From: Luteimonas sp.
Lineage (GTDB): Bacteria; Pseudomonadota; Gammaproteobacteria; Xanthomonadales; Xanthomonadaceae
Direction of reading: 5' to 3'
Assembly: GCA_036675265.1 (NCBI GenBank)
Contig: JAKFFJ010000016.1
Span: 125 to 64,124 of the forward strand
Length of the DNA stretch: 64,000 nt
Shown here: positions 3,330 through 59,864 of the stretch, in pieces
Layout: each line of letters begins with the position of its first letter
Position numbering within the stretch: position 1 is the stretch's first letter
The notes under the pieces: model-generated
The model's database searches: none
Seen by the model: only the letters and a program-made list of their open reading frames with translations
What the model was told of the DNA's origin: nothing
Program-made: the position numbers and the translations under genes

Positions 3330-3355
3330 GACACGGAACTACCGCCTTCGGTGGA

Positions 3356-3784: not shown

Positions 3785-3884
3785 GGAATTCTCCCCTCGG
3801 AGGTTGGTTGCTTCACGTGCCTGGCGAGGCCGGACTTCCGGTCCGTCGGCAGCCGTGCGTCGGTGCACGTGCAGCCAAAGCATA

Positions 3885-3900
3885 CGCAGAATCCATGCCA
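3885..3900 (-). promoter_or_regulatory. Candidate sigma54 (RpoN) promoter of pilA
   Basis: The minus strand reads TGGCATGGATTCTGCG. GG and GC have the canonical 12-nt register of TGGCAC-N5-TTGCW. It lies about 100 nt upstream of the pilA ATG. pilA is RpoN/PilR-dependent in characterised relatives. Confidence 0.45.
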
Positions 3901-4007
3901 GTAAAGCCCTCGCGCGGGGCAATGTCGGCAATTGCAAAGGCGGTCACGATCGGCGATCGGAAGTGCGGTCCCAAAGCGGACGCACCGGGTCAGTTCCGGG
4001 TCCGAAG

Positions 4008-4022
4008 TGACAAAAATTGTCA
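4008..4022. promoter_or_regulatory. Palindrome TGACA-N5-TGTCA, candidate PilR enhancer (UAS)
   Basis: Perfect 5+5 inverted repeat centred about 116 bp upstream of the -24 element. It contains the TGTC core reported for PilR sites. It overlaps the pilR stop codon. Confidence 0.25.
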
Positions 4023-5423: not shown

Positions 5424-5499
5424 GGAATCCCCTCCGCCGCCACCTTAGCGGAACGCGCGCGCGGCCGGCAAAGCGTGACGCGGGTCCGGGGGGGGTCGG

Positions 5500-7101: not shown

Positions 7102-7160
7102 GGCCGGGAGTATGCCCGGCAGGCGCTACAATGGCCGGTCCCCCAGGTACCGGTTGATCC

Positions 7161-44229: not shown

Positions 44230-46101
44230 TCATGCCATGGCTCCGCCGACCGCCTGCCGCGCCGTCGCGAGCGCTTCCAGCACCTCGGCACCATAGCGCT
44301 CGAGCTTGCGGTCGCCGACCCCGTTGATGTCGCGGAGGGCCGCGAGTCCGGCAGGATCCGCGAGCGCGATCGCGCGCAGCGTCGCATCGTGGAAGATCAC
44401 GTAGGCCGGGACGTTCTGTTCGCGCGCCGCCCCGGCGCGCCATTCGCGCAACGCATCGAAGCGGCCCGATGCCTCGGCCGGCAGGTCCGCCAGTGGGGCG
44501 TCCGCCCTGCGTCCGGCGCGACTGCGCTTCCGGTCCCGCGCGGGGGGTTCCAGTCGCATCGACAGGGTGCGCCGGCCCTTCAGCACGTCCTCGCTCGCCG
44601 CGGTCAGTCGCAACGCACCGTGCCCCTCGACATCGACGTCGAGGACGCCCGCGGCCACCAGTTGCCGGAAGATGCTGCGCCACTGGCCGGCATCGAGGTC
44701 CGCGCCGATGCCGTAGGTGCTGAGCGCGTCATGCCCGAACTGGCGGGCCTTTGCGGTGTCCGCGCCCCGCAGCACGTCGACCAGGTGCGCCGCACCGAAC
44801 CGTTGGCCGGTCCGGTACACGCAGGACAGCGCCTTCTGCGCGGCGACCGTGCCGTCCCAGGTCGCGGGGGGCTGCAGGCAGTTGTCGCAGTTGCCGCACT
44901 GCCCCGGGTGCGACTCGCCGAAATACGCCAGCAACTGCTGGCGCCGGCAGGCCGTCGACTCGCAGTAGCCCAGCAGGGCATCGAGCTTGCGTCGCTCCAG
45001 GCGCTTGCGTTCCTCGCCCGCATCGCCGTCCTCGATCATCCGCCGCAACAGCACCGCGTCGCCCAGGCCGTAGGCCAGCCAGGCGTCGGCCGGATCGCCG
45101 TCGCGCCCGGCGCGGCCGGTCTCCTGGTAATAGCCCTCGATCGACTTGGGCAGGTCCAGGTGCGCCACGAAGCGCACGTCCGGCTTGTCGATGCCCATGC
45201 CGAACGCGATGGTCGCGACCATCACCACGCCGTCCTCCTGGAGGAACCGGCGCTGGTTGGCGGCCCGCACGCCTGCATCCAGGCCCGCGTGGTACGGCAG
45301 CGCCTTGAACCCCTGTGCCGCCAGGTATTCCGCCGTCGCATCGACCTTCCGGCGGGACAGGCAGTACACGATGCCGCTGGCGCCTCGCCGCTCCTCCAGG
45401 AAGGCCAGCAGTTGCCGCCGCCCGTCCTCCTTCGAGGCCACGCCGTAACGGATGTTGGGCCGGTCGAAGGACCCCACGAACGTTCGGGCGTCCTCCAGCC
45501 GGAGCCGCTCGACGATCTCGCGCCGGGTCGGGGTATCGGCGGTGGCCGTCAACGCGATCCGCGGCACCTCCGGCCAGCGTTCGTGCAGCACGGTGAGCTC
45601 GCGGTATTCCGGCCGGAAGTCATGGCCCCATTGCGAGACGCAATGCGCCTCGTCGATCGCGAACAGGGCAATCCGGGACTGGTCCAGCAGGCCCAGGAAC
45701 CGGGGCGTCAGCAGGCGTTCGGGGGCGACGTAGAGCAGCTCCAGCGCGCCGTCCAGGAGCTGGCGCTCGACGGACGCGGCCTCGCTGGCCGACAGGCTGG
45801 AATTGAGGCAGGCGGCCGCGACGCCGAGCTGTCGCAGGGCCTCCACCTGGTCCTGCATGAGCGCGATGAGCGGCGAGACGACGATGCCTGTGCCTGGCCG
45901 GAGCAGGGCAGGCAACTGATAGCACAGGGATTTTCCGCCGCCGGTCGGCATCAGCACCAGTGCGTCGCGGCCCTCGATGAGACAATCGACGACCGCCGCC
46001 TGGTCACCCCGGAACTGGGCGAAGCCGAAAATGTGACGCAGTTCCCGAAGTGGGCTTCCGGTCGTCAGGGGAGCGACGGAAACGTGATCTGAATCACGCA
46101 T
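44230..46101 (-). CDS. recQ: ATP-dependent DNA helicase RecQ
   Basis: [59 protein letters not shown], a zinc-binding [12 protein letters not shown]...CGNCDNC, and a C-terminal HRDC domain. 623 aa. Confidence 0.95.
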
Positions 46102-46142
46102 TTGCGGGGTATTCCATTCATGTTACCGGATGGATTTCACGT

Positions 46143-46171
46143 TTGACATAGTGCTAAAGTCACGTTTAACG
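46143..46171 (+). promoter_or_regulatory. Candidate sigma70 promoter for the DUF11 cluster
   Basis: TTGACA-N17-TTAACG lies in an unusually AT-rich spacer. It overlaps an 11-nt direct repeat TCACGTTT(G/A)AC at 46137 and 46160. The -10 element is weak. Confidence 0.25.
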
Positions 46172-46326
46172 AAACCTTGACTTGTCCGTACGGGACCTGT
46201 CGGGGTGGGAAAAGGGGACCACTGCGACAGTCCGAGTGGGACGTCCGTCGCAGTCCGCGCAGGAGCGATCACCGTCAAGCAACCGACCGACGCATGGTCG
46301 GTGCTCAAGCAAGAGTGTGCCATCGC

Positions 46327-46824
46327 ATGAACACCATCGACGTACTCGGAATTGTTCGGAAGCAGCGGTGGGCGCTTGGCGCCGCCGCGTTGCTGTGCGC
46401 GGCCGTCGTCAATGCGCAAGGCGCTTTCGAGGTCAAGGGCGCGGTCTTCCAGGACATCGAAGTGCGGACCCCGGAAGGCGAGGTCGAGACGAAGCGCGTA
46501 CCGGTCGCGACCGTCGTGCCCGGCAATGAAGTGATCTACGAGATCACCTACGTCAACCAGGGCGATGCACCCATCACCGAGGTGGCCATCAACAATCCGG
46601 TGCCGCCGCAACTGGCGTTTGTCGACGTCGAAGGCGCCCCGTACACGGCGGTATCGGTGGACGGCGGGCAGGCCTTTGGCGCGCTGGCCGAGTTGACGGT
46701 TCCGGCGGACGACGGACGCGAGCGCCCGGCACAGCCCGCCGACGTCACCCATCTTCGCTGGGTGCTCGGCGTCGTCGCACCAGGCAGCAACGGGAAGGTC
46801 GCGTTCAGGGCCCGGGTCAAGTAA
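46327..46824 (+). CDS. Small secreted single-domain DUF11 (conserved repeat domain) protein
   Basis: 165 aa. Signal peptide RKQRWALGAAALLCAAVVNAQG. VVPGNEVIYEITYVNQGDAPITEVAINNPVPPQLAFV and the terminal GKVAFRARVK fit the DUF11/TIGR01451 pattern. An upstream alternative start lies at 46177. Confidence 0.7.
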   Translation: MNTIDVLGIVRKQRWALGAAALLCAAVVNAQGAFEVKGAVFQDIEVRTPEGEVETKRVPVATVVPGNEVIYEITYVNQGDAPITEVAINNPVPPQLAFVDVEGAPYTAVSVDGGQAFGALAELTVPADDGRERPAQPADVTHLRWVLGVVAPGSNGKVAFRARVK

Positions 46825-46897
46825 CCACTCCAGCACCACGCCACATCCATTCCGGTCGCGGAACACCGGTTGAGACACACCAGGGGGGAACCTTTAC

Positions 46898-47986
46898 ATG
46901 AAGCGGAATTCGATCAAGCTGCTGACCGCAGCCCTGCTCCTTGCGGGCGCACAGCAAGCCTTCGCCGAGGGCACCACGGCCGGCACCGACATCATCAGCA
47001 CCGCGACGGTCGACTACAAGATCAGTGGCGTGTCGCAGGCGACGTTGAATCCGACCTACACGCCCTTCGAGGTCGACCGCCGGGTCAACCTGACCGTCAC
47101 GCTCGACACGTTGACGAAGAATGTCGCGCCGAACGCGCAGGACCAGGTGCTGGAGTTCACGGTCACCAACGGCACCAACGATGTCATCGACGTCGGACTG
47201 GGGGTGCTGGGGGTGCTGAACGGTTCGGGCGACGATTTCGATCCGACCGGGTTGGCCTACTACGTCGAAAGCGGCGCGGTGGCCGGTTTCGATCCGACGG
47301 ACGTCAGCGCGGCGATCACGTATATCGACGAACTCGGCGCGGACCTGACGAAGAAGGTCTACGTCGTCGGCGACATTCCTGCCGGGCTCGCGGATGCGTT
47401 GACCGGCCAGGTCGTCCTGACGGCGACCGCCCTGGAGGGTGGTACCGGCAGCACCCAGGGTGCTGCCCTGGTAGCGGATACCGATGCCAATGATCCCGCG
47501 GTGGTCGAGAACGTGTTCGGCGACGCGCAAGGCGCGACGGACGGGGCCACTCCGGATGGCAAGCACAGTGCCGCTGGCACCTACACGGTCGACACGACGA
47601 CGATCAACGTCAGCAAGACCTCGACCGTCATCACCGACCCCTTCAACTTGACGACCAACCCCAAGGCGATTCCGGGCGCGACGATCCAGTTCTGCATCCT
47701 GGTGGATAACACCGGTGCGACTGCTGCCACCGAAGTCAAGGTCGACGACCCGATTCCCACCGGCACGACGTATGTCGCCCAGAGCATCAAGGTGGGCGTT
47801 GAGTGCAATACGTATGACACCACTGCGGTCGCCGAGGACGACGATACGACCGACACCGCCGGTGAGGAAACTGACGGCACCAGCGGGAGTTGGGATGGCT
47901 CGACGATCCACACGCAGGTGACCAACCTGAACGGTGCCACGAAAACGGCGACGATGTTCCGCGTCAAGATCAACGGAACACCCTGA
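46898..47986 (+). CDS. Secreted two-domain protein with C-terminal DUF11 domain (candidate fibre subunit)
   Basis: 362 aa. Signal peptide MKRNSIKLLTAALLLAGAQQAFA. RBS GGGGGGA. The C-terminal half (KTSTVITDP...NPKAIPGATIQFCILVDNTGATAATEVKVDDPIPTGTTY...MFRVKI) is DUF11-like. Thr/Asp/Gly-rich. Confidence 0.75.
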   Translation: MKRNSIKLLTAALLLAGAQQAFAEGTTAGTDIISTATVDYKISGVSQATLNPTYTPFEVDRRVNLTVTLDTLTKNVAPNAQDQVLEFTVTNGTNDVIDVGLGVLGVLNGSGDDFDPTGLAYYVESGAVAGFDPTDVSAAITYIDELGADLTKKVYVVGDIPAGLADALTGQVVLTATALEGGTGSTQGAALVADTDANDPAVVENVFGDAQGATDGATPDGKHSAAGTYTVDTTTINVSKTSTVITDPFNLTTNPKAIPGATIQFCILVDNTGATAATEVKVDDPIPTGTTYVAQSIKVGVECNTYDTTAVAEDDDTTDTAGEETDGTSGSWDGSTIHTQVTNLNGATKTATMFRVKINGTP

Positions 47987-48005
47987 CCGATCCCTGCGGT
48001 CCCTG

Positions 48006-48035
48006 GGTCTTTCGAGGCTGACGCCTCGAAGGACC
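48006..48035 (+). promoter_or_regulatory. Intercistronic 13-bp stem-loop between the 362-aa gene and the giant OMP gene
   Basis: GGTCTTTCGAGGC-TGAC-GCCTCGAAGGACC (one G.U pair). It starts 20 nt after the upstream stop and ends 17 nt before the next start. No U-tract follows. Confidence 0.5.
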
Positions 48036-48051
48036 GGACGCCGGTGCCCAT

Positions 48052-51000
48052 GTGAAAACCAAATGGCCAGCCACCACTACTAGTACGCGCGCGCGCAGGT
48101 ACGCCCGGCCGATGGTCGCCGGGTGCCTCCTCGGTGCGCTGCTGGCCATGGCGGGCGGGGCTTCGGCGAGCGAGATCCAGAACACGGCGACGGTCCATTA
48201 CACCCTCGTCCGCACGCCCGGGCAGGGACCGCTGAACGTGACCGTCCCGAGCAACACGGTCCGGATGGCTGTGCTCCCGGCGCCGACCGAGGCGGTGATC
48301 GAGTTCCTCACCCAGGTCAGCGCGACGATCGCCGACCTGCCCGAACCTGGCCCGGAGTCGGCGGGGTCCGCGACGTCGCCCCTGCCCATGGGGCTCGGGC
48401 AGGTCGTGCCGACCGCCGCAGGGGAATTCATCCGCGTCGATGGCGCCTTTTGCCAGGACCTGTCCGGGACGTTCGCGCCGGCGCCCCCGGTGATCGGCGT
48501 CGATGGTCGCCCGCTCGATCCCAACGGCTTCGTGACCGTCGTCGCGACGAGCTATTCGCCCGGCGAAGCGGTGATCGTCAGCGTGGAGGACGGCGACCGC
48601 AACCTCGATCCGCTGGTGCGCGACTACGTGAAGGTCACGGTCAGGACCTCGCATCCGAACGAGGCGGAAACCCTGCGCATGCAGGAGACCGGCGAAGATA
48701 CCGGCAGGTTCGCCGCGGCGCTGCAGAGCGTCCCGATGCCGCCGGACCCCGTCGCGCACGATTGCAGGCTGGCGATCGGCAGCGGCGGCGCGCTGCAGAT
48801 CGAATACCTCGACGATCCAAACGCACCCGAAACCCAGGTGCAGACCACGATCACCGTCACCCCGAAGCCGCCGTCGCCGAGCAGCGTCGTCCTGCAGCTG
48901 TCGCAGCAGGCCTCGGTCGCGGAGGCGTCCATCGGCGACTTCGTCCAGTACACCGTCACCGTGTCCAATCCCGGCGGCGTGCCCGCGCTGGACACCCGCC
49001 TGGTCGACGTCCTGCCGCGCGGCCTGCGTTACCGCGACGGTTCGGCGCGCATCGTGTCGCGCAGCGGCGCTTCCGGCGGCACCGCCGGGGTGCCCGACGA
49101 GGTCGAGTTCACTGCGCTGGCAAGCGACGGCGGCTCGCTGGCGATAGGCCTCGGGACGATCGAGCCTGGCGTGACCGTCGTCGTGACACTCGTGGCCGAG
49201 GTGGGCAGTGGGACGCCTCCGGGCCAGGCCGTCAACGACACCGTGGCGGTCGCGGCCGGGCTGGTGTCCAACCGCCAGCAGACCGTCGTCGCGATCCGGG
49301 AACCGCTGATGGTGTCGCACTTCACCATCGTCGGCCGCGTCCTGCAGGGCACCTGCGACGGGGATCCGACGGATCGCGCGGGCGTCCCGGGCGTGCGCGT
49401 GCTGCTCGATGACGGCACGTACGTGGCGACCGATGACGACGGTGCCTACCACTTCGAAGGCGTCCGCCCCGGCACCCATGTCGTGCAGCTGGATGTCCCC
49501 ACCGTTCCCGCCGGACTGGAGCCGGTGGCCTGCGCGGACGACACGCGGCGCGCCGGACGCAGCTTCTCGCAGTTCGTCGAGGCACAGGGCGGCAGCCTGG
49601 TGCGCAGCGACTTCGTGCTGCAACCGGCCGCGCCTGCCACCGGTGCGGTCGGCGCGCGGCTGCGTGCAGAAGCCATCGCAGGTGGCACGCGATACACCGC
49701 CGAACTCGACGGTGGCCCGGTGCCCGCGTCGAACCTGCGTGCGATGCTGATGCTCCCCGAAGGCGCAAGGGTCGTCCCGGGGTCTGCAACCGTCGACGGC
49801 GTCGCGGTGGCGGATCCGGCGGTCGCCGCCAACATCGTCACGTTCGCGCTTGGCGATCCGGGCGCCACCTGGCGGCGCACGCTGCAATTCCATGTGCGCG
49901 CCGCGGGCGAGTGCCCTGCCGGCGGGATCGAAGCCAGGCTGGTGGCACTGTTCGATGCCGGCGGCCAGGCAGTGCAGAAAACGGCGCCGGCGACGGCGAT
50001 GCTGCCCTGCGGCCCACCGGGGCCGTCCGTCGACAGCGGGCGCGTGGAGTCGATCGTCAGCGCCGCCGCCGCAGGGCCGGCGGTTTCGCCGTTCGTGGAA
50101 GCGGAACAATCGCGCCGCGCCATCCTCGACGACGCCGCCGCGGCCGGCGGTGGCGACGTCGACTGGTTGCGCGACCAGGCACCCGGTCACGAGTGGCTGT
50201 TCCCGGCCGCCGACTACAACCCGCGCTCGCCGCTCACCCGGGCGGTCGTCAAGCACCTGCCCGGCGAAACCGTCCAGGTGCGGATCAATGGCGAGGCGGC
50301 TTCGCAGATCGCCTTCGATGGCGTCGTGGTCAACGCCGCGAAGACCGTGGCGACCAGCATCTGGCGCGGCCTGCCGTTGCGGGACGGCGACAACACGCTC
50401 GAGGCGCATATCTCCGACGCCGACGGCAACGTGGTTGCGCGACTCTCGCGCAACGTGCATTTCTCGGGGGCGCCGGCACGGGCCGAGCTGGTGCCGGAGC
50501 AATCGATCCTGGCGGCCGACGGCCTGCATTCGCCGGTGATCGCGGTGCGCTTCCTCGACCGGACCGGCCGCCCCGTGCGCGCAGGCATGGGTGGCGACTA
50601 CACCCTGTCGCCGCCGTACCTGCCCGCACAGGCGGTGCAGATGCAACAGCAGCGCCAGCTGGCGGGCATGGAGTCGTTCGAGCCGACCTGGCACGTCGAG
50701 GGCGACGACGGCATCGCCTACATCGCGCTGCAGCCGACCAGCGTCGCGGGCAGCGCCCTGTTGGGCTTCCGGTTCCAGCAAGGGCAGGGCAGGCAATCGC
50801 GGCAGGCGGACCACCAGGAGCTCGAGGTCTGGCTGAAGTCCACGCCGCGCGACTGGGTGGTCGTCGGCTTCGCGAAGGGCACCGTCGGGTACGACACGCT
50901 CGACGGGAACATGGAGGGACTGGACGCGGCCGGCCACGAGGCCGGGTTGACCACCGATGGCCAGCTCTCGCTGTACGCGAAGGGCCGCGTGCTGGGCAAG

Positions 51001-53397: not shown

Positions 53398-56300
53398 GGG
53401 CGTTCCGGCCAGGCGTGGCCTGCGTGGCCTGGCTGGTGGCGCTGCTCGTGGCGCTCGGTGCCGCCACGGATGCGCACGCCGCCATCAAGACGGTCTACGT
53501 CCATGACGACGGAACCCTGACGCGTACGCCGCAGGCCGCCGTGGCGACCGCGGGCATCGTCCCCATCGACAGCAAGGGCGACTTCAACGACTGGGTGTTG
53601 GCGCCCCCGGTCGCCGCCGGCAAGTCCCTGGTGCTCAGCCCGGGGAACATCAACGCGACGCTGGTGGTCAGCAGTTCCGCGCCGGTGACCGCCCGGGTGG
53701 AGCTATGGGACGGCGCGCCCGGCGCAGTGGGGTCCACGCTCCTCGCCGCCACCGCGGCGGATGTCGCGGTCAACAGCACGACGCCGGTGTCGACCACGTT
53801 CGTGATGCCCCTGGCCGGCGCGGCGACCATCGCGGCGGGGCGCCCGCTTGGCCTGCGGGTGATCAATACCCTGGGCCAGGGCGGCAGCAAGACCCTGACC
53901 GTCCACCAGTACGGCGCCGGCGTCCGCAGCACGATCGCGTTCGCCACGTCGACCTTCGTCAACGTCGACAGCGTGGCCATCCATTCCGCGGTGTACCCGG
54001 GTGCAGCGACGAAGTCGGCCTACGCGCGCAACAACAGCGTGTACGTGCGGGCCGTCGCCAGCGATCCGTTCGGCAGCGCGGACATCAGCGGTGCCACGCT
54101 GACCCTGACCGACCCGGGCGGCACGGTGCGCGTCGCTGGCGCGGCCATGCCGCAGGTGGCCGATTCCGGCGTCGCGACGCGCACCTACGAGTACACGTAC
54201 GTGTTGCCGTCCACGGCGCCGTTCGGCCAATGGACCGCCACGGTTACCGCCAGCGAAGGCACGGAAGGCACCGTGACCCATGCCGGCAACGCAACGTTCC
54301 AGGTCGCGCTGGCGTCGCTGTCCATCACGAAGTCGCACACCGGCAACTTCACGGCGGGCACCAACGGCACGTACTCGATCGTCGTGCAGAACAACGGCGG
54401 CACCGTGACCGGGCCGACCACGGTCACCGACACGCTGCCGGCCGGCCTGACGTTCGTCTCCGGCACCGGGACCGGGTGGAGCTGCGGCGCTGCCGGGCAG
54501 GCGGTGACCTGCACCAACGGCGCGACCATCGCCAATGCCACGAGCCTGCCGACTTTGAACCTGACGGTTGCCGTGGCCGGCAGCGCGCCGTCGAGCGTCA
54601 GCAGCCTGGCCAACGTGTCGAACCCCAACGTCAACGGTGGCGCCAGCGTCAGCAGCAACACGGACACGACCGTCGTCGTTCACCCGGACCTGTCGAATTC
54701 GGCCACGGCCGTGCTCGACCTCAACGGCGGCGACGCCGAACCCGGCGACGTGCTGCGCTACACGGTCAGCCTCGTCGAGAGCGCAGGCGGCCCGGCCACG
54801 TCGATCGGCGTGACCGACGACATGCCGGCGGGCATCACCGGGTTCACGGTGGTATCGACGCCCCCGGGCAGCACGAATGCCTCCACCGGGGGCGGCGGCG
54901 CGAACGCCACGGGCCGGCTCGACGTCACCGGCATCTCCGTGCCGGCGAGCGGAACGGCGACGATCGTCTTCGACATCACCGTCGGCGCGGGTGCGGCAGC
55001 CGGCTTCACGATCGACACCGCGCCCATCGCCGCGAACCCGAACGGCCCGGGAGGCACCGCCACCGCGCCGACCGTCACCGTGTCGCAGTCCCAGGTCGCC
55101 GCCTCCGGCAACAAGCTGCTGTACGTCTACGACAACCTTTCACTGACGCGCACGCCGCAGCCGGCGGCCACCACGGCGGGCGTGCAGATCGCCAGCGGCG
55201 GGACGTCGAACTGGACGCTGGCGCCGCCGATCCCGGCGGGTGAAACGCTGGTGCTGCCCGCTGGGGACATCGGCGTGAACCTCGTGACGTCCAGCACGAA
55301 CGGCAAGTCGGCCACCGTCACGGTGGCACTGTTCGACGGCGCGACCCAGGTGGGCCCCACCGCGACGCAGATCTTCTCGAGCACGGTGCCGACGCTGCGG
55401 ACCTTCACCATCGCGCTGCCCGCCCAGTACACCCTGGCGGCCGGTGCCCAGCTGGTCCTGCGCGTCACCAACACCACGGGCGGCAACGTGCCGGTCGCCG
55501 TGTCCCAGTACGACGGCGTGCGCAGCGACATCAAGTTCGCGACCTCGACCGTGGTCAACGTCGACAGCGTGAACCTCTATTCGTCCGCGTTCCCGGGGAC
55601 GACCACCAAGCCGTTCTACGCCGCGAACGACGTGCTGTACGTGCGGGCGGTGGTGAGCGACCCGTTCGGCAGCGCCGATATCGGCGGTGCGAGCATCCGC
55701 CTGCTGGACGGCAACGGCGTGGTGCAGCTGGCGCCGGCCGAAATGACGATGGTCGCCGATTCCGGCGCCAACGCGCGGACCTACGAATACCAGTTCACGT
55801 TGCCGTCGAATGCCATGGTCGGGTTCTGGACCGCCACCGTGACCGGTCGCGAGGGCACGGAAGGCACCATCACCCACCTGGTCAACCGTTCGTTCGGCGT
55901 CGGCGTCGCCCAGTTGACGCTGGCGATGTCGCACGCCGGGGATTTCGTCGCGGGCACCAACGGCAGCTATACCCTGGTCGTGCACAACAACGGCGACCCG
56001 GTGTCGGGCACCACGACCGTCACGGACACGTTGCCGGCGGGCCTGTCGTTCGTCTCCGGAACGGGCACCGGGTGGAGCTGCAGCGCGGCCGGCCAGGTGG
56101 TGACCTGCACCAACGCCACCGCCCTGCCGACCGACGGCGACCTGCCACCGCTGGCGCTGGTCGTCGCCGTCGCCGGCAGCGCCCCGGCGACGGTGAACAA
56201 CGTCGCGTCGGTCGCCAACGCCGGCGTGGACGGCGGCAACCCGCAGAACAGCAATACCGACGCGACCACGATCCTGCATCCAGACCTGTCGACGTCCACG

Positions 56301-59300
56301 CTGTCGGTGCTGGACCTCAACGGCGGCGACGCCAACCCGGGCGACGTGCTGCGCTACACGATCGACCTGCACGAGACAGCCGGCGCTGCGGTGGCGGGCG
56401 TGGGTGCCACCGTGCAGGTGCCTGCCGGGGTCGCCGGCTTCACGGTGGTGGACGTCCCGGCCGGCAGCACGGATGCCTCGGTCGCCAGTGGCGGCGCGAA
56501 TGGCACCGGGCTGCTGGACATCACCGGCATCGCGCTGTCGCCCGACGCCAGCGACACGATCGCGTTCGAGGTCACCATCGGGGCGGGCGCGACGCCGGGC
56601 GCCACCCTCGACGCCACCGCCATCGTCGCCAACCCGAACGGTCCCGGCGCCACGGCGGCGGCATCGACGATCACCGTGTCGCAATCGCAGGTTGCCGCCT
56701 CCGGCAACAAGCTGCTGTACCTGTACGACAACGGCAGCCTGACCCGCACGCCGCAACCGGCCACGAACACCGCCGGCGTGACGATCGCGACCGGCGGCAT
56801 CCAGAACTGGACCCTGGCGCCTGCCATCCCCGCCGGGAAGTCGCTCGTGCTGGACGCGGGCAACGTGTCGGCCACGATGGTCCTCAACAGCAGCGGCAAC
56901 ACCGTGTCGGTCACTGCAGCGCTGTTCGACGGCGCCACGCAGGTGGGTACCACGGCTACCCAGAACCTGACCAGCAACGCGCCCACGCCGGTGGCGTTCA
57001 CCATTCCGCTCTCCGCGCCCTACACGCTGGTCGCGGGCCGGCAGCTGGTGCTCAGGGTGACCAACACGTCCAACGGCAACCGCCCGGTCACCGTGCACCA
57101 GTACTCGGGCACGCCGAGCGTGCTTTCGTTCAGCACCGCGACGGTGGTCAACGTCGACACCGTCGCGATCTACGCCGCGCCGTACCCCGCCACCACGACG
57201 AAGGCGTTCTATGCGGCGAACGACATCCTCTACGTCCGCGCCGTGGTGAGCGACCCGTTCGGCAGCGCGGACGTCGGCGGCGCGACCGTGTCGCTGGCCA
57301 CGAACGCCGGGGCGCCGATGCTCAGCGCCGCGGCGATGACCCAGGTCGCGGATTCCGGCGTCGCGACCCGAACGTACGAACGCGCCTACACGGTGCCAGT
57401 CGGGGCCGCCGTCGGGTTCTGGACCGCCAGCGTCACCGGTCGCGAAGGCACCGAGGGCACGGTCACGCACACGGGCAACACGTCCTTCGGCATCGGCGTC
57501 GCGCAGCTGACGCTCGCCAAGTCCCATGTGGGTGACTTCACCGCCGGCGCCAACGGCAGCTGGTCGCTGGTGGCGCACAACAACGGCAGCGCGGTTTCGG
57601 GCACGACCACCATCGTCGACACCCTGCCGGCGGGGTTGTCGTTCGTCTCCGGCACCGGCACCGGCTGGTCGTGCGGCGCCGCTGGGCAGGTCGTCACCTG
57701 CACCACGACCACCGGCATCCCCACCGGTGCGGACCTGCCGACGCTGACCCTGACCGTCGCCGTCGGCGGTTCTGCCCCGGCGAGCGTTGCAAACGTCGCC
57801 ACCATCTCGAACCCGGGCGTGGACGGCGGCAACCCGCAGAACAGCAACGCGGACAGCACCACGATCCGGCACCCGGACCTGTCGACCTCCACGCTCGCCG
57901 TGCAGGACCTCAACGGCGGCGATGCGAACCCCGGCGACACGCTGCGCTACACCGTCGACCTGGTCGAGTCGGCGACGGCGGCCGCGACGGGCGTGGCCGT
58001 CACCAGCGACATGCCGGCGGGCGTGCAGGGGTTCACCGTGGTGTCGATCCCGGCCGGCGCGACGAATGCATCGCTTCCCACCGGCGGAGCGAACGGCACC
58101 GGCCGACTGGACATCACGGGTGTCACCGTGGCCGCCGGCGCCTCGGCCAGCGTCGTGTTCGATGTCGTGGTCGGCGCAGGCGCGACACCGGGCACGGCCA
58201 TCAACGGCGCGGCAGGCATCGCCAATCCCAACGGGCCGGGCGCCTCGCCGATCGCGTCGACGATCATCGTGTCGCAGTCGCAGGTGGCGGCCTCGGGCAA
58301 CAAGCTGTTGTACCTCTACGACAACGCCACGCTGACGCGCACCCCACAGGTCGCGCTGGATACCGGCGGCGTCGCCATCGCGACGGGCGGCACGCAGGAC
58401 TGGACGCTATCGCCCGCGATCCCCGCGGGCAAGTCGCTCGAGCTGAGCGCGGGCAACGTCACCGCCACGCTGGTGGTGGACACCGCCAACCAGCAGGCCA
58501 CGGTGACCGCACGCCTGTTCCACGGCGCGACCCAGGTCGGCACGACGGGCAGCCAGACGTTCACCGCGAACGGCGCCTCGCCGCGCATCTTCACCATCGC
58601 GCTGGCGGCGCCATACACCGTGCCGGCGGGCGCGCAACTGGTCCTGCGCGTCGGGACGACCGGCGCGGCGGCGACCGTGCACCAGTACCGGGGCGCGCCC
58701 AGCACGCTGTCGTTCGCCACCACCACGGTGGTGAACGTCGACAGCGTGGCGGTCCACTCCGAGGCGTATCCCGCGGCCACCACCGCGCCATTCCTGGTCC
58801 ACGGGAACACGGCGTACATCCGTGCCGTGGTCAGCGACCCGTTCGGCAGCGCCGACGTCGGCGGCGCCAACATCACCCTCACCGATCCGGGCGGCACGGT
58901 GCGCGTCAACAACGTCGCGATGACGCAGGTCGCGGATTCCGGCGTCGCCACGCGCACCTACGAATACCAGTACAACATCCCGCCGGGGGCGCAGCTGGGT
59001 TCCTGGACCGCCGGCGTCGTCGCACGGGAAGGCACGGAAGGCACGGTGACCCACAGCGGCAATGCCGCGTTCGCGGTCCAGGGGACCATCTCGGCCGGCA
59101 TGACCTGGGTGGACGCCAACGCCGGCGATTCGGTGGCATTGACGGTCGCAGGGGGAACCGGCGCGGTCGCCGGCAGTTCGACGGCGCCATCGACCACCAC
59201 GCCGGCCTCGGGGACGTCGACGGCCGGCGCGACGATCACGTTGTCGCAGGCGTTCACCGTCGGCAGTGCCGGCAGCTACAGCCTCACGCTCACCTGCACG

Positions 59301-59864
59301 CGCGGCAGCGACGGCACGGCGCTTCCGGTCTCGGGCCTCGGCCTGGACCGGACCATCACCATGCCGGTCGACAGTTCGGTCGCCTGCACATGGACCAACA
59401 CACTCTCGGTGCCGTTGACGGTGGTCACCGTGACCACGGTGCACTCCGACCCGTTGAACGGGACGGTGAACCCCAAGGCCGTGCCCGGCGCACTCGTGAC
59501 CCACCAGCTCCAGGTGATCAATCCCGCGCCGGTCGCGGTCGATGCCGACACCGTGGTGGTGACCCACGCGGTTCCGGCGGGCGCCGGCCTGTTCGTCGGC
59601 GACCTGGGGGCCGTGGGCTCGGGGCCGGTGTCGTTCGCGGACGGCGTGCCCGCGAGTGGCCTGGCCTACGTGTTCGTGGCGCTCGGGGACGCCGGCGACG
59701 ACGTGTCGTTCTCGGCCGACAACGGCGCGACGTTCGGATACGTGCCGACGCCCGACGCCAACGGGGTCGATGCGTCCGTGACCCACCTCCGGGTGAATCC
59801 GGGAGGCGTCTTCGCCGCGGACGGCGGCACCTTCCAGCTGCAGTACCGCGTCAGGGTGGAGTAA
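53394..59864 (+). CDS. Giant modular secreted protein (about 2156 aa) built of repeated beta-sandwich/DUF11 modules; candidate adhesin
   Basis: The GTG start overlaps the stop of the preceding gene (GTGA). Signal peptide VRAFRPGVACVAWLVALLVALGAATDAHA. There are three full modules of about 532-542 aa and a fourth half module, each with TDTLPAGL.FVSGTGTGWSC...VTCT DUF11 motifs. A unique roughly 260-aa C-terminal region ends in a DUF11-like domain. Confidence 0.8.
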   Translation: MRAFRPGVACVAWLVALLVALGAATDAHAAIKTVYVHDDGTLTRTPQAAVATAGIVPIDSKGDFNDWVLAPPVAAGKSLVLSPGNINATLVVSSSAPVTARVELWDGAPGAVGSTLLAATAADVAVNSTTPVSTTFVMPLAGAATIAAGRPLGLRVINTLGQGGSKTLTVHQYGAGVRSTIAFATSTFVNVDSVAIHSAVYPGAATKSAYARNNSVYVRAVASDPFGSADISGATLTLTDPGGTVRVAGAAMPQVADSGVATRTYEYTYVLPSTAPFGQWTATVTASEGTEGTVTHAGNATFQVALASLSITKSHTGNFTAGTNGTYSIVVQNNGGTVTGPTTVTDTLPAGLTFVSGTGTGWSCGAAGQAVTCTNGATIANATSLPTLNLTVAVAGSAPSSVSSLANVSNPNVNGGASVSSNTDTTVVVHPDLSNSATAVLDLNGGDAEPGDVLRYTVSLVESAGGPATSIGVTDDMPAGITGFTVVSTPPGSTNASTGGGGANATGRLDVTGISVPASGTATIVFDITVGAGAAAGFTIDTAPIAANPNGPGGTATAPTVTVSQSQVAASGNKLLYVYDNLSLTRTPQPAATTAGVQIASGGTSNWTLAPPIPAGETLVLPAGDIGVNLVTSSTNGKSATVTVALFDGATQVGPTATQIFSSTVPTLRTFTIALPAQYTLAAGAQLVLRVTNTTGGNVPVAVSQYDGVRSDIKFATSTVVNVDSVNLYSSAFPGTTTKPFYAANDVLYVRAVVSDPFGSADIGGASIRLLDGNGVVQLAPAEMTMVADSGANARTYEYQFTLPSNAMVGFWTATVTGREGTEGTITHLVNRSFGVGVAQLTLAMSHAGDFVAGTNGSYTLVVHNNGDPVSGTTTVTDTLPAGLSFVSGTGTGWSCSAAGQVVTCTNATALPTDGDLPPLALVVAVAGSAPATVNNVASVANAGVDGGNPQNSNTDATTILHPDLSTSTLSVLDLNGGDANPGDVLRYTIDLHETAGAAVAGVGATVQVPAGVAGFTVVDVPAGSTDASVASGGANGTGLLDITGIALSPDASDTIAFEVTIGAGATPGATLDATAIVANPNGPGATAAASTITVSQSQVAASGNKLLYLYDNGSLTRTPQPATNTAGVTIATGGIQNWTLAPAIPAGKSLVLDAGNVSATMVLNSSGNTVSVTAALFDGATQVGTTATQNLTSNAPTPVAFTIPLSAPYTLVAGRQLVLRVTNTSNGNRPVTVHQYSGTPSVLSFSTATVVNVDTVAIYAAPYPATTTKAFYAANDILYVRAVVSDPFGSADVGGATVSLATNAGAPMLSAAAMTQVADSGVATRTYERAYTVPVGAAVGFWTASVTGREGTEGTVTHTGNTSFGIGVAQLTLAKSHVGDFTAGANGSWSLVAHNNGSAVSGTTTIVDTLPAGLSFVSGTGTGWSCGAAGQVVTCTTTTGIPTGADLPTLTLTVAVGGSAPASVANVATISNPGVDGGNPQNSNADSTTIRHPDLSTSTLAVQDLNGGDANPGDTLRYTVDLVESATAAATGVAVTSDMPAGVQGFTVVSIPAGATNASLPTGGANGTGRLDITGVTVAAGASASVVFDVVVGAGATPGTAINGAAGIANPNGPGASPIASTIIVSQSQVAASGNKLLYLYDNATLTRTPQVALDTGGVAIATGGTQDWTLSPAIPAGKSLELSAGNVTATLVVDTANQQATVTARLFHGATQVGTTGSQTFTANGASPRIFTIALAAPYTVPAGAQLVLRVGTTGAAATVHQYRGAPSTLSFATTTVVNVDSVAVHSEAYPAATTAPFLVHGNTAYIRAVVSDPFGSADVGGANITLTDPGGTVRVNNVAMTQVADSGVATRTYEYQYNIPPGAQLGSWTAGVVAREGTEGTVTHSGNAAFAVQGTISAGMTWVDANAGDSVALTVAGGTGAVAGSSTAPSTTTPASGTSTAGATITLSQAFTVGSAGSYSLTLTCTRGSDGTALPVSGLGLDRTITMPVDSSVACTWTNTLSVPLTVVTVTTVHSDPLNGTVNPKAVPGALVTHQLQVINPAPVAVDADTVVVTHAVPAGAGLFVGDLGAVGSGPVSFADGVPASGLAYVFVALGDAGDDVSFSADNGATFGYVPTPDANGVDASVTHLRVNPGGVFAADGGTFQLQYRVRVE
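53487..59089 (+). repeat. Diverged tandem coding repeats, period about 1.6 kb (3.5 copies)
   Basis: The anchor codon (K of AIKTVY/GNKLLY) recurs at 53487, 55113, 56709 and 58302, giving periods of 1626, 1596 and 1593 nt, all multiples of 3. By eye the copies are roughly 70-85% identical at DNA level. Confidence 0.85.

What the first reader, a model, noticed from the sequence alone, without database searches (positions are those of the whole stretch)
46102..59864. Four-gene DUF11 / giant beta-barrel cluster: candidate undescribed outer-membrane fibre or adhesin assembly system
Four co-directional genes occupy 13.5 kb, and every product has a Sec-type signal peptide. P1 is 165 aa with a single DUF11 domain. 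P2 is 362 aa with two domains, the C-terminal one DUF11. P3 is 1781 aa, with Ig-like domains followed by a roughly 900-aa beta-barrel-like C-terminus. P4 is about 2156 aa and consists of tandem beta-sandwich/DUF11 modules. Spacing is operon-like: 73 nt, then 65 nt containing a strong hairpin, then a 4-nt GTGA overlap between P3 and P4. In or beside the cluster I cannot see any partner expected for exporting a 2000-aa protein in a diderm. There is no T1SS ABC/MFP pair, no TpsB/POTRA protein, no periplasmic chaperone or classical usher, no sortase, and no autotransporter barrel on P4 itself. The layout mimics chaperone-usher logic (small presumably abundant subunit, attenuating hairpin, large OM component, large tip or adhesin protein) but lacks a chaperone. 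Mature P2 and P3 share an N-terminal strand motif (ISTATVDY and QNTATVHY). P1, P2 and P4 end with similar F-x-(A/V/Y)-R-V-(K/R/E)-type strands. This suggests P3 may act as a dedicated translocon or anchor for the DUF11 proteins.
Basis: partly seen in the sequence, partly recalled or inferred. Interest (0 to 1): 0.85.

Follow-up and report, generated by a model that had tools for sequence, protein, structure and literature searches.

The report
Conserved surface-fibre operon with giant barrel
These four genes are one example of a widespread, apparently undescribed operon. In it, small proteins carrying one cut-off "half" of an adhesin domain seem built to snap together into a surface fibre, which is held and probably exported by a very large outer-membrane barrel protein without the usual chaperone.

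Summary
P1 (46327-46824), P2 (46898-47986), P3 (48052/48112-53397) and P4 (53394-59864) are real co-directional genes with the stated domains, spacings, hairpin and GTGA overlap.

P3's last ~850 residues model confidently as a huge beta-barrel. That region matches no Pfam or NCBIfam family and no solved fold better than TM 0.29.

The P3 barrel family is large: at least 587 species genomes and 3360 clusters. In 66 of 68 loci with enough flank, P1-like and P2-like genes sit directly upstream. P4-like genes are optional (28 of 68).

New here is a split-domain pattern.
- P1 and P2 end just after the seventh-strand region of a CLIPPER (DUF11) domain, so they lack its last two strands. P4's related C-terminal domain ends with the same strand type, but its profile alignment was ambiguous.
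- Mature P2 and P3 begin with that missing hairpin (I-x-N-T-A-x-V-x-Y...S-N...V), which includes the isopeptide Asn.

This gives a donor/acceptor grammar: tip (P1 or P4), shaft (P2), base (P3). P2 carries an invariant Lys and Asp with no Asn partner in its own domain.

P1 and P2 are hypervariable between close relatives, and a hairpin follows P2 in 16 of 16 loci checked.

Best reading: a chaperone-free, donor-hairpin fibre anchored, and probably extruded, by P3. All of this is inference from sequence; I found no paper describing it.

The parts
46102..46326 (+). Upstream intergenic region between divergent recQ and P1; presumed promoter region
   Evidence: GC is 56% against about 70% for the window. 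No sigma-70 consensus match was found. The same recQ|P1 junction occurs in relative L085.
46327..46824 (+). P1, 165 aa: signal peptide plus a single truncated CLIPPER/DUF11 domain. Acceptor only, no donor hairpin, no isopeptide Lys. Proposed cap or tip subunit.
   Evidence: Pfam DUF11 29.3 bits. hhalign of the P1 family against a complete CLIPPER domain stops at template column 117 of 164, Prob 90%. Appending P3's N-terminus raises the Pfam score from 29.9 to 40.0 bits and extends the HMM match from 5-53 to 5-97. Present in 66 of 68 loci. 66.7% identical to its counterpart in L085, against 90-99% for neighbouring genes.
46898..47986 (+). P2, 362 aa: signal peptide, donor hairpin, complete CnaA-like N-domain, truncated CLIPPER C-domain. 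Proposed shaft (major) subunit.
   Evidence: AlphaFold2 pLDDT 90.9, two Ig/CnaA-like domains. 355 homologues found. Orthologues sit directly upstream of P3 in 68 of 68 loci with flank.
46967..47077 (+). P2 donor hairpin (mature residues 1-37: ...TDIISTATVDYKISGVSQ...TPFEVD)
   Evidence: Family consensus A-G-T-x-A-G-T-x-[IV]-x-N-T-A-T-V-[DN]-Y-x-V-G-G-V-x-Q...F-x-V-D-R. Position 11 is Asn in 55 of 63 sequences; it is Ser here and in 6 others, and Ala in one. The hairpin aligns to the last two strands of a complete CLIPPER domain (columns 127-145; weak, E 0.16). pLDDT is 92-95 in the monomer model, so it is docked, not free.
47591..47974 (+). P2 acceptor domain (mature 209-336): CLIPPER lacking its last two strands. 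Invariant Lys217 (47615-47617) and Asp261 (47747-47749).
   Evidence: hhalign Prob 98.2%, E 2.4e-13, ends at template column 121 of 164. K217 and D261 are present in 63 of 63 sequences, and no conserved Asn follows D261. 60 of 63 proteins end one residue after the F-R-V-T-V strand.
48006..48035 (+). GC-rich RNA hairpin after the P2 stop, with no T-run. Proposed partial terminator or mRNA 3' stabiliser that sets a P2 > P3 ratio.
   Evidence: 13-bp stem, z = -2.98. A hairpin at the same position occurs in 16 of 16 loci from four orders or phyla, with compensatory changes among the window, L085 and L005. Only 29 of 640 control windows fold as well.
48052..53397 (+). P3, 1781 aa (or 1761 aa from ATG 48112): signal peptide, donor hairpin, Ig-like stalk, conserved core, giant beta-barrel. 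Proposed base, anchor and probable conduit.
48169..48291 (+). P3 donor hairpin (residues 40-80: SEIQNTATVHY...PSNTVRMAV), with Asn44 at 48181-48183. P3 has no matching truncated acceptor domain.
   Evidence: I-x-N-T-A and S-N-T-V are conserved in the P3 family consensus. The motif was found in 138 P3-like sequences. P3's internal CLIPPER domain is complete, with its own N-x-x-x-A...S-N...V tail.
48892..49302 (+). P3 internal complete CLIPPER domain (residues 281-417), followed by a CarboxypepD_reg/SdrD_B-like domain (438-484)
   Evidence: Pfam DUF11 32.7 bits, HMM 2-96; TIGR01451 50.2 bits.
50191..50775 (+). P3 barrel-proximal Ig-like domains (residues 714-908), weakly Big_1/invasin-like
   Evidence: AlphaFold2 strands at fragment 35-229, pLDDT about 90. 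Weak Invasin_D3 and Big_1 hits, E 0.015-0.046.
50809..53364 (+). P3 conserved core plus beta-barrel (residues 920-1771). Nine long strands, then a small beta insert (1102-1154), then 32 consecutive long strands. Ends in a YLVMRFKF beta-signal-like strand.
   Evidence: DSSP of model m2d5f75c4490a. Foldseek hits are only large outer-membrane barrels (SlpA, LptD, TonB-dependent receptors, FimD/PapC, MtrB, SprA), all TM <= 0.29. No Pfam hit at E <= 10. The most conserved motifs lie at residues 975-1175.
53394..59864 (+). P4, 2156 aa: signal peptide, then four ~532-aa modules of beta-sandwich/CLIPPER domains. Proposed optional tip adhesin.
   Evidence: The start overlaps the P3 stop (GTGA), as in many other loci.
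59415..59861 (+). P4 C-terminal acceptor domain (residues ~2008-2156), homologous to the P2 acceptor domain. Here it lacks the Lys (Thr) and the Asp (His).
   Evidence: BLASTP to the P2 C-domain and to the C-termini of P4-like proteins elsewhere. P4-like proteins of 170-1715 aa share only this domain. The family majority has Lys and Asp; the window has Thr and His.

Best explanation
The cluster encodes a chaperone-free surface fibre built from a split CLIPPER (CnaA-like isopeptide) domain.

**Roles proposed for each protein**
- P1, P2 and P4 each appear to end in a CLIPPER domain that lacks its last two strands. These are acceptors.
- Mature P2 and P3 each begin with that missing hairpin. These are donors.
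- Head-to-tail insertion of each donor hairpin into the acceptor of the next, more distal subunit gives a polar chain. An acceptor-only tip (P1, or the giant adhesin P4) is followed by a P2 shaft, then the donor-only base P3.

**Covalent lock.** Where the donor carries Asn, it can lock to the acceptor's invariant Lys through an isopeptide bond catalysed by the invariant Asp. In this window only the P3 (Asn44) to P2 (Lys217/Asp261) link has all three residues. P2's own donor has Ser, and P4's acceptor has lost both Lys and Asp.

**P3.** It sits in the outer membrane through a barrel of 30 or more strands. In many homologues it also binds peptidoglycan. It therefore anchors the fibre, and most likely provides the pore through which the tip-first chain is extruded, as an usher does.

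**Control of assembly and dosage.** Before assembly, P2 is probably kept inert by docking its own hairpin in cis. The hairpin RNA after P2 probably gives more P2 than P3.

**Shown here:** gene content, domain truncation in P1 and P2, motif identity, conservation, synteny, the barrel model, hypervariability and the RNA hairpin.

**Inferred:** trans complementation, isopeptide formation, fibre formation, topology and passage through P3.
For: 1. **Truncated acceptors.** The P1 and P2 C-domain families align to a complete CLIPPER profile only up to column 117 or 121 of 164 (Prob 90% and 98%). 60 of 63 P2 proteins stop one residue after that strand.
2. **Donors match the missing part.**
   - The P2 and P3 N-termini carry I-x-N-T-A-x-V-x-Y...S-N...V. 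They align to columns 127-145 of the same profile.
   - The Asn corresponds to the isopeptide Asn806 of the solved CLIPPER domain 9IFR (PMC12617251).
   - Appending P3's N-terminus to P1 raises the Pfam DUF11 score from 29.9 to 40.0 bits and extends the match from HMM 5-53 to 5-97. On the P2 C-domain, P3's N-terminus raised the score from 29.9 to 34.7 bits, whereas a shuffled peptide gave 28.4 bits.
3. **An orphan catalytic pair.** K217 and D261 are invariant in 63 of 63 P2 proteins, with no conserved Asn in the same domain. The donor Asn is present in 55 of 63.
4. **Unbalanced grammar.** Every locus has exactly one donor-only protein (P3), at least one acceptor-only protein (P1, sometimes also P4), and one or two donor+acceptor proteins.
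5. **Synteny.** P1 and P2 sit upstream of P3 in 66 of 68 loci, spanning Lysobacteraceae, Moraxellaceae, Burkholderiales, Sphingomonadales, Caulobacterales, Nitrospirota and Desulfuromonadales.
6. **Barrel.** P3 models as a very large barrel (pLDDT 80.6) that does not belong to any known family. OmpA-like and SPOR domains in homologues tie it to peptidoglycan.
7. **Hypervariability.** P1 and P2 are 64-67% identical to those of a relative whose neighbouring genes, P3 and P4 are 89-99% identical. This is expected for exposed structural subunits.
8. **RNA hairpin.** A conserved hairpin follows P2.
9. **Precedents.** Donor-strand exchange with an intermolecular isopeptide lock, or with a nucleator or anchor, is known from Sulfolobus threads (PMC9715654), BsaA (10.1101/2024.11.04.621531), TapA/TasA (PMC9674648) and tafi (PMC11821415).
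Against: - No multimer prediction or experiment was possible. The monomer model of P2 docks its N-terminus with high confidence, which fits purely cis complementation equally well.
- Model coordinates could not be inspected, so barrel closure, strand count and which P2 domain holds the hairpin are not verified.
- The donor-to-profile alignment is weak on its own (E 0.11-0.16).
- P2's own N-terminus added nothing to the P2 C-domain's Pfam score (29.2 against 29.9 bits).
- The P4 family alignment to the CLIPPER tail was ambiguous.
- The N-terminal part of P3 homologues varies from about 40 to 1950 aa. That suits an exposed stalk better than a periplasmic usher domain, so the topology is unresolved.
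- Nothing here shows that subunits pass through P3. A type II secretion system elsewhere in the genome could export them.
Confidence: 0.5

Rival explanations
1. P3 is only a surface anchor and nucleator. Its N-terminal stalk threads out through its own barrel, as an autotransporter passenger does. P1, P2 and P4 reach the surface by another route, for example type II secretion. They then add distally onto P3's exposed donor hairpin in a strand-exchange chain reaction, as TapA nucleates TasA. P1 or P4 caps the chain.
For: - The donor/acceptor polarity fits this model as well as the best explanation.
- P2's cis-docked hairpin in the monomer model fits a closed, secretion-competent monomer that an exposed donor then activates (precedents PMC9674648, PMC11821415).
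- The N-terminal region of P3 homologues is highly variable in length and rich in adhesin-type domains (CLIPPER, DUF7933, SpaA-like).
Against: - A conserved barrel of 30 or more strands, with a highly conserved internal core, is far more than anchoring needs.
- The OmpA-like domain lies between the stalk domains and the barrel in homologues. This requires a more contorted topology.
- No secretion genes co-occur in the loci examined.
Confidence: 0.2
2. There is no fibre. The N-terminal hairpin of P2 completes its own C-domain in cis, as a circular permutation. P1 to P4 are separate envelope or surface proteins that merely share domains. P3 is a self-contained large porin or autotransporter-like adhesin, comparable to SlpA of Deinococcus.
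For: - The P2 monomer model is compact, with a confidently docked N-terminus (pLDDT 92-95, pTM 0.77).
- The top Foldseek hits for P3 are SlpA-type 30-strand barrels.
- This window's P2 donor lacks the Asn.
Against: - It leaves P1's domain (and probably P4's) permanently incomplete, and P3's hairpin without a partner domain.
- It does not explain the invariant gene order with exactly one donor-only protein per locus.
- It does not explain the conserved stop/start coupling of P3 and P4, or the conserved hairpin after P2.
Confidence: 0.15
3. The assembly is a periplasmic or envelope-spanning scaffold. P3's N-terminal region stays in the periplasm, bound to peptidoglycan. P1, P2 and P4 form a periplasmic structure that tethers the outer membrane to the cell wall, rather than an external fibre.
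For: - OmpA-like domains lie N-terminal of the barrel, and SPOR domains lie C-terminal, in homologues.
- In this window and in L085 the cluster lies near the Tol-Pal genes.
Against: - A 2156-aa, four-module adhesin-like P4 fits poorly in the periplasm.
- P1 and P2 are hypervariable between close relatives, as expected for exposed antigens.
- CLIPPER domains are typical of extracellular stalks (PMC12617251).
- The Tol-Pal neighbourhood is not conserved in other taxa.
Confidence: 0.1

Closest known systems
Chaperone-usher pili (Fim/Pap; usher PF00577, PapD-like chaperone)
   Same: Both use subunits with an incomplete Ig-like fold that is completed by an N-terminal extension from the next subunit. 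Both have an acceptor-only tip adhesin, a donor-bearing terminator at the base and a large outer-membrane barrel. In both, a hairpin after the major-subunit gene sets subunit dosage.
   Different: This system has no chaperone. The donor is a two-strand hairpin, not a single strand. The subunit fold is CnaA/CLIPPER, with isopeptide residues. The barrel is unrelated in sequence, larger (about 32-40 strands against 24), and fused to the base subunit. Foldseek TM to FimD/PapC is <= 0.29.
Donor-strand fibres with an intermolecular isopeptide lock: Sulfolobus threads (PMC9715654) and C. perfringens BsaA of the TasA family (10.1101/2024.11.04.621531)
   Same: An N-terminal strand inserts into the neighbouring subunit, and an Asn-Lys bond is catalysed by an acidic residue ('exchange and lock'). 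No chaperone is involved.
   Different: Those systems occur in an archaeon and a monoderm, and they use unrelated folds. They have no outer membrane to cross and no barrel component. Here the lock is predicted only from conserved residues.
TapA/TasA and haloarchaeal tafi (PMC9674648, PMC11821415)
   Same: A dedicated minor protein supplies the first donor strand or anchors the chain. Monomers are self-complemented until activated.
   Different: There is no sequence or domain relationship. The anchor here is a giant outer-membrane barrel.
CLIPPER/DUF11 fibrillar adhesins (PF01345; crystal structure 9IFR, PMC12617251)
   Same: All four proteins carry bona fide CLIPPER domains. P4 and the P3 stalk look like typical tandem-domain stalks.
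   Different: Described CLIPPER adhesins are single polypeptides with intramolecular bonds. Here the terminal domain is split between polypeptides, so a polymer would mimic a continuous stalk.
Type V pili of Bacteroidota (Fim/Mfa)
   Same: Both show tip, shaft and anchor logic with strand exchange and no chaperone-usher pair. In both, an anchor subunit terminates the fibre at the outer membrane.
   Different: Type V subunits are lipoproteins activated by proteolysis, and they exchange C-terminal strands. P1 to P4 have no lipobox, and no protease gene is present.
Large outer-membrane barrels: Deinococcus SlpA (30 strands), LptD (26), MtrB (26), SprA (36)
   Same: They are the best structural matches and are of similar size. 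Like some P3 homologues, SlpA links the outer membrane to the cell wall.
   Different: TM-scores are <= 0.29 and sequence identity is 7-11%. There is no shared accessory domain architecture.

Membership tests
CLIPPER / DUF11 domain proteins (PF01345, TIGR01451) | Match to the domain model above the curated cut-off | tested here: met
   P1 29.3, P2 27.7, P3 32.7 and P4 77.3 bits against a cut-off of 24.6. TIGR01451 gives 28.5 to 97.8 bits against a cut-off of 24.
CLIPPER / DUF11 domain proteins (PF01345, TIGR01451) | Intramolecular Lys-Asn isopeptide with a catalytic Asp inside one domain (as in 9IFR) | tested here: not met
   This applies to the terminal domains. P2 has the Lys and Asp but no Asn in the domain. 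P1 has neither Lys nor Asp. The window's P4 has Thr and His at those positions. The internal domains of P3 and P4 do have the Asn strand.
Chaperone-usher pilus systems | Usher protein (PF00577: 24-strand barrel with plug, N- and C-terminal domains) | tested here: not met
   There is no Usher, PapC_N or PapC_C hit in P3, even at E <= 10 on fragments. Foldseek TM to FimD/PapC is 0.13-0.29.
Chaperone-usher pilus systems | Periplasmic PapD-like chaperone gene in the cluster | tested here: not met
   None was found among the ORFs scanned in the window or in the called genes of L001-L004 and L085.
Chaperone-usher pilus systems | Subunits with an incomplete Ig fold completed by an N-terminal extension of the neighbour | tested here: inconclusive
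   Truncated acceptors and matching donor hairpins are shown at the sequence and profile level. Insertion in trans could not be modelled or observed.
Type V secretion (autotransporters, two-partner secretion, intimin/invasin) | 12- or 16-strand barrel of the Autotransporter, ShlB/POTRA or IAT_beta families | tested here: not met
   There are no such Pfam hits. The barrel region has about 32-40 strands. Only weak Big_1 and Invasin_D3 hits (E 0.015-0.046) fall on the Ig domains before the barrel.
TonB-dependent / Oar-like receptors | Plug (PF07715) plus a 22-strand TonB_dep_Rec barrel after a CarboxypepD_reg domain | tested here: not met
   Only a sub-threshold CarboxypepD_reg hit (21.6 bits against a cut-off of 32.3). 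There is no Plug or TonB_dep_Rec hit. TM <= 0.28.
Sortase-assembled pili | Sortase gene and LPXTG sorting signals on the subunits | tested here: not met
   There is no sortase in the window. P1, P2 and P4 end in a beta-strand (..FRARVK..FRVKINGTP..YRVRVE) with no LPXTG.
Type I secretion RTX-type adhesins | ABC transporter plus membrane-fusion protein plus TolC-like protein nearby; C-terminal secretion signal; no N-terminal signal peptide | tested here: not met
   All four proteins have N-terminal Sec-type signal sequences. There is no ABC/MFP pair adjacent in the window. The ABC/MFP genes next to L003 are of the MacB/FtsX type and are not conserved elsewhere.
P3 barrel family (unnamed; this report) | C-terminal ~850-aa core plus barrel with the motifs [YF]AKG[RK][VI]xGxW, [IL]xG[ND]G[TL]SG[LP]Y and [ND]Px[FWY]I[VI][AV][ED]YE, with P1-like and P2-like genes upstream | tested here: met
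   The window's P3 is the query. There are at least 587 species genomes, 3360 clusters at E <= 1e-3 and 1322 at E <= 1e-30. Synteny holds in 66 of 68 loci.

The most novel reading that the evidence does not exclude
This could be a previously unrecognised outer-membrane pilus-biogenesis pathway of diderm bacteria.
- A CnaA-type isopeptide domain is split between polypeptides.
- The subunits polymerise by hairpin exchange without any chaperone.
- They are extruded tip-first through a dedicated barrel of 30 or more strands.
- The barrel's own N-terminus finally inserts into the last subunit and locks it covalently. The fibre is thereby tied to the outer membrane and, in many species, to peptidoglycan.

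The system is present in hundreds of species of Pseudomonadota, Nitrospirota and Desulfuromonadales.
Probability: 0.35. Interest if true: 0.9.

Novelty: new variant of a known kind. Interest (0 to 1): 0.8.

Why it matters
**If the reading is right:**
- It adds a new class to the short list of ways Gram-negative bacteria build surface fibres.
- It would show how a 2000-residue adhesin can be displayed without type I, II or V secretion or chaperone-usher machinery.
- It identifies a naturally split, self-ligating CnaA-type domain, a natural counterpart of SpyTag/SpyCatcher. That could serve as a protein-ligation tool.
- It gives a function to thousands of "DUF11 / hypothetical / OmpA family" genes in soil, plant-associated and aquatic bacteria.

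**It is also directly testable.** Cultured Sphingomonas, Sphingopyxis and Asticcacaulis strains carry the operon.

**If the reading is wrong,** P3 still defines a large family of unusually big outer-membrane barrels that has no Pfam or NCBIfam model and no name.

Tried and rejected
**Sequence and fold searches**
- Sequence searches of P2, P3 and P4 against PDB chains found nothing useful.
- Foldseek of the P2 model returned only generic tandem Ig/CnaA-like folds: integrin legs, AgI/II and Cna, all TM <= 0.33.

**Covariation and alignment attempts**
- I tried to score covariation between the donor Asn and the acceptor Lys/Asp across loci using regular expressions. It was too noisy, and there were too few exceptions, to give statistics.
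- A MAFFT alignment of P4's internal domains with the P1, P2 and P4 termini was ambiguous and was not used.
- hhalign of the P4 C-terminal family in global mode stretched over the whole template with low confidence. P4's truncation therefore rests on its homology to the P2 C-domain.
- Appending P2's own N-terminus to the P2 C-domain did not raise the Pfam score.

**Technical dead ends**
- Tandem Repeats Finder found nothing in P4, because the 1.6-kb period exceeds its limit.
- A first BLAST self-comparison of P4 printed nothing. Motif spacing and pairwise alignment were used instead.
- The look-up of P0053 was not on record.
- The coordinates of the two AlphaFold models could not be read, so contacts, barrel closure and any plug position were not checked.

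**Literature**
- Nine literature searches found no description of this operon. One of them was badly posed and uninformative.

**Ideas rejected**
- P3 as an usher, TonB-dependent receptor, LptD or autotransporter: there is no sequence-family hit, and TM-scores are low.
- P1 as the abundant shaft subunit: it has no donor hairpin.

Full report
**1. What is there**

The window is about 70% GC. A closely matching protein cluster comes from a Xanthomonadaceae metagenome-assembled genome. Four co-directional ORFs with coding-type codon bias lie between divergent recQ (44230-46101, minus strand) and a dps/ferritin gene (59871-60461, minus strand) followed by hrpA.

| Gene | Coordinates | Length | Domain hits |
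|---|---|---|---|
| P1 | 46327-46824 | 165 aa | DUF11 |
| P2 | 46898-47986 | 362 aa | DUF11, C-terminal |
| P3 | 48052-53397 | 1781 aa | DUF11 at 281-400; sub-threshold CarboxypepD_reg/SdrD_B hit at 438-484; nothing beyond |
| P4 | 53394-59864 | 2156 aa | 4 x DUF11, MG2-like |

- NCBI calls a near-identical P3 homologue from Met21, which corresponds to ATG 48112 here.
- Pfam has since renamed DUF11 as CLIPPER, a CnaA-like isopeptide domain. Its first crystal structure is 9IFR (PMC12617251).
- P4 consists of four ~532-aa modules.
- The other window ORFs scanned are housekeeping genes: PilA/PilR/PilS, SucC, BamD, ClpB, AspRS, RuvB, Tol-Pal, QueE and QueC. No secretion partner was seen among the ORFs scanned.

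**2. P3 is a member of a large family with no curated model**

- P3 residues 680-1781 were modelled with a 59-sequence alignment (pLDDT 80.6, pTM 0.75). The model shows Ig-like domains, then nine long strands, then a small beta insert. After that come 32 uninterrupted long antiparallel strands, ending in a beta-signal-like YLVMRFKF.
- Foldseek against the PDB returns only large outer-membrane barrels: SlpA, LptD, TonB-dependent receptors, FimD/PapC, MtrB and SprA. Probability is about 1, but TM-scores are <= 0.29 and identity is 7-11%. P3 is therefore a barrel that belongs to none of those families.
- Sequence searches against the PDB and against Pfam at E <= 10 give nothing for this region.
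- The family is large. It has 3360 clusters (50% identity) at E <= 1e-3 and 1322 at E <= 1e-30.
- The carriers include Lysobacteraceae, Steroidobacteraceae, Burkholderiales, Moraxellaceae, Sphingomonadales, Asticcacaulis, Nitrospirota and Desulfuromonadales.
- All source names are "hypothetical", "DUF11 domain-containing" or "OmpA family".

**3. The operon is conserved**

- I searched the ORFs of 84 loci with HMMs built from P1-like and P2-like proteins. The recurring order is P2a (about 340 aa), P1 (about 158 aa), P2b (about 355 aa), then P3.
- Of 68 loci with more than 3 kb upstream of P3, 66 have both P1 and P2, and 63 have two P2 paralogues.
- The Lysobacter-type loci, including this window, lack P2a.
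- A P4-like gene directly follows P3 in 28 of 68 loci, usually overlapping its stop codon. These proteins range from 170 to 1715 aa and share only a C-terminal ~150-aa domain homologous to the P2 C-domain.
- The core of the system is therefore P1+P2+P3, and P4 is a variable add-on.

**4. The split-domain pattern**

*Donors.* In a 63-sequence alignment, mature P2 proteins begin with A-G-T-x-A-G-T-x-[IV]-x-N-T-A-T-V-[DN]-Y-x-V-G-G-V-x-Q...F-x-V-D-R. P3 proteins begin with I-x-N-T-A...S-N-T-V.

*Acceptors.*
- 60 of 63 P2 proteins end one residue after an F-R-V-T-V strand.
- Profile-profile comparison used a complete CLIPPER domain as template: P3's internal one, 214 sequences, 164 columns including flanks. 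The P1 family stops at column 117 (Prob 90%). The P2 C-domain family stops at column 121 (Prob 98.2%, E 2.4e-13). Both miss the tail N-x-A-x-A...S-N-x-A-x-A-x-V.
- The P4 C-terminal family gave an ambiguous alignment over that tail. Its assignment as an acceptor rests on its homology to the P2 C-domain.

*The two halves fit together.*
- The P2 N-termini align to that tail, columns 127-145. The score is weak because the segment is short (E 0.16).
- In an alignment of one of P4's internal CLIPPER domains to 9IFR, the isopeptide Asn806 aligns with the Asn of the "sLaNvs" strand. By motif, this is the strand that I-x-N-T-A resembles.
- Appending P3's N-terminus to P1 lifts the Pfam DUF11 score from 29.9 to 40.0 bits and extends the match from HMM 5-53 to 5-97 in one stretch. 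P2's N-terminus gives 34.7 bits on P1. On the P2 C-domain, P3's N-terminus gives 34.7 bits against 29.9 alone. A shuffled control gives 28.4, and P2's own N-terminus gives 29.2.

*Catalytic residues.*
- The P2 acceptor domain has an invariant Lys217 and Asp261, at the positions of the CLIPPER Lys and the catalytic Asp. There is no conserved Asn after Asp261.
- The donor Asn is present in 55 of 63 P2 sequences.
- The P1 family lacks the Lys and has an invariant Asn-Pro where the Asp would be.
- Most P4-like acceptors keep the Lys and Asp, but the window's P4 has Thr and His.
- The window's P2 donor has Ser. This is shared with its nearest relatives.
- P3's internal CLIPPER domain is complete, so P3's N-terminal hairpin has no partner domain in P3 itself.

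**5. Reading of the pattern**

| Role | Proteins |
|---|---|
| Acceptor only | P1, P4 |
| Donor and acceptor | P2 (and P2a elsewhere) |
| Donor only | P3 |

- A linear chain needs exactly one of each end type, and that is what every locus provides.
- The polarity matches chaperone-usher pili. Donors point distally, the tip adhesin has only an acceptor, and the base protein has only a donor.
- A P2 polymer would look like a continuous tandem-CLIPPER stalk whose chain is broken inside every second domain.
- The P2 monomer model (pLDDT 90.9) docks residues 1-40 at pLDDT 92-95. This shows that the hairpin is part of a folded domain. It also suggests cis self-capping as the substitute for a chaperone.
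- The model cannot separate cis from trans complementation, and I could not read the coordinates.

**6. Supporting observations**

- *Hypervariable P1-P2.* A close relative (L085) has the same genomic context. Identities to the window are TolB 98%, QueC 99%, RecQ 92%, P3 89.5% and P4 92.6%. P1 and P2, however, are only 66.7% and 64.4% identical.
- DNA identity falls to 0.58-0.79 across 46350-48100 and recovers inside P3. P1 and P2 also have lower GC, 66.5% and 63.5% against 71%. This pattern is typical of exposed, abundant structural subunits.
- *Conserved RNA hairpin.* A GC-rich hairpin lies 10-25 nt after the P2 stop in most of the 16 loci checked across phyla, and every one of the 16 has a stable hairpin downstream of that stop. 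The sequences differ, and compensatory changes are seen among the nearest relatives. Only 29 of 640 random windows from the same loci fold as well.
- This fits a dosage device that favours the shaft subunit over P3, as in classical pilus operons. That comparison rests on my own knowledge of the pap and fim operons.
- *Link to peptidoglycan.* In many P3 homologues an OmpA-like peptidoglycan-binding domain lies between the stalk domains and the barrel. One homologue also has a C-terminal SPOR domain.
- P3 is therefore tied to the cell wall, and at least its barrel-proximal N-terminal part is periplasmic. This favours a usher-like arrangement in which P3's donor hairpin meets the base of the fibre on the periplasmic side.
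- *Counterpoint.* The N-terminal region of homologues ranges from about 40 to 1950 aa, which would suit an exposed stalk. The topology therefore stays open.

**7. Mechanism proposed**

My confidence in this mechanism is about 0.5.
1. The subunits are exported by Sec, and P2 is self-capped in cis.
2. At P3, an acceptor-only tip (P1 or P4) enters first.
3. P2 subunits add at the base by hairpin exchange, and the chain is extruded through the barrel.
4. P3's own hairpin inserts last. In this window that is the only step with a complete Asn/Lys/Asp triad, so it may lock the fibre covalently to its anchor.

Rival explanations:

| Rival | Confidence |
|---|---|
| P3 is only an anchor and nucleator, with distal growth of subunits secreted by another route | 0.2 |
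| Cis complementation only, no fibre | 0.15 |
| A periplasmic scaffold | 0.1 |

**8. Comparison with what is known**

- The logic is closest to chaperone-usher pili. The chemistry is closest to the "exchange and lock" fibres of Sulfolobus threads and C. perfringens BsaA, and to nucleated TasA and tafi assembly (PMC9715654, PMC9674648).
- Membership in the chaperone-usher, type V secretion, TonB-dependent receptor, sortase-pilus and type I secretion families was tested and is not met. See the membership table.
- Domain membership in CLIPPER is met.
- Nine full-text searches found no paper on this operon, on the barrel family or on split CLIPPER domains. The CLIPPER survey does not mention them. 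Subscription-only literature was not searchable.

**9. Verdict**

It can be sharpened: P2, not P1, is the shaft; P4 is optional; and P3 is the base, with or without a conduit role.
- I rate this a new variant of a known kind, namely a donor-strand surface fibre that uses a new outer-membrane component and a new split-domain subunit.
- Interest is 0.8.

Noticed in passing
window 46350-48100 (P1 and P2), compared with L085 9436-11056: P1 and P2 form a hypervariable, lower-GC cassette. They are 64-67% identical in protein to a relative whose flanking genes, P3 and P4 are 89-99% identical. DNA identity drops to 0.58-0.79 only across these two genes. This suggests diversifying selection or allelic replacement of exposed subunits.
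   Followed up: partly
window 48006-48035; equivalent positions in L001-L003, L005, L007, L011, L015, L018, L019, L025, L027, L028, L039, L045, L085: A GC-rich hairpin without a T-run follows the P2 stop codon in all 16 loci examined across distant taxa. The structure is conserved but the sequence is not. It is probably a partial terminator or an mRNA 3'-end stabiliser.
   Followed up: partly
P3 homologues P0026 (690-792), P0053 (650-753), P0035 (820-922 and 2507-2577), P0036 (863-965): Many P3 homologues carry an OmpA-like peptidoglycan-binding domain inserted between the N-terminal Ig-like domains and the barrel. One also has a C-terminal SPOR domain. The window's P3 has neither.
   Followed up: partly
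window 48052 vs 48112: The P3 start is ambiguous. The GTG at 48052 gives a long Arg-rich n-region. NCBI's annotation of a homologue in the same 90% cluster starts at the ATG equivalent to 48112. That would widen the P2-P3 spacer to 125 nt.
   Followed up: no
window 46997-46999 (P2 Ser11), and the P4 acceptor domain 59415-59861: In this lineage the P2 donor has Ser where 55 of 63 homologues have the isopeptide Asn. P4's acceptor has Thr and His where most P4-like proteins have Lys and Asp. Only the P3-to-P2 junction keeps a full triad. Whether these losses are correlated across lineages could not be established.
   Followed up: partly
window 235-7125 (minus strand): A type IV pilin gene (3356-3943) lies next to PilR/PilS regulators (4020-7125). 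Downstream of it is a 659-aa ORF with no Pfam hit (1359-3338) and a GT4 glycosyltransferase (235-1488). This may be a pilin-modification locus.
   Followed up: no
window 42259-44151 (minus strand): A 630-aa protein with a Beta_propel (PF09826) domain lies between queC and recQ. It is conserved at the same place in L085, and its function is unknown.
   Followed up: no
L007 9048-18996 and L019 8990-17170; L056 and L061: Some loci carry two consecutive P4-like genes after P3, each ending in the acceptor domain. One anchor may therefore serve alternative tip proteins.
   Followed up: no
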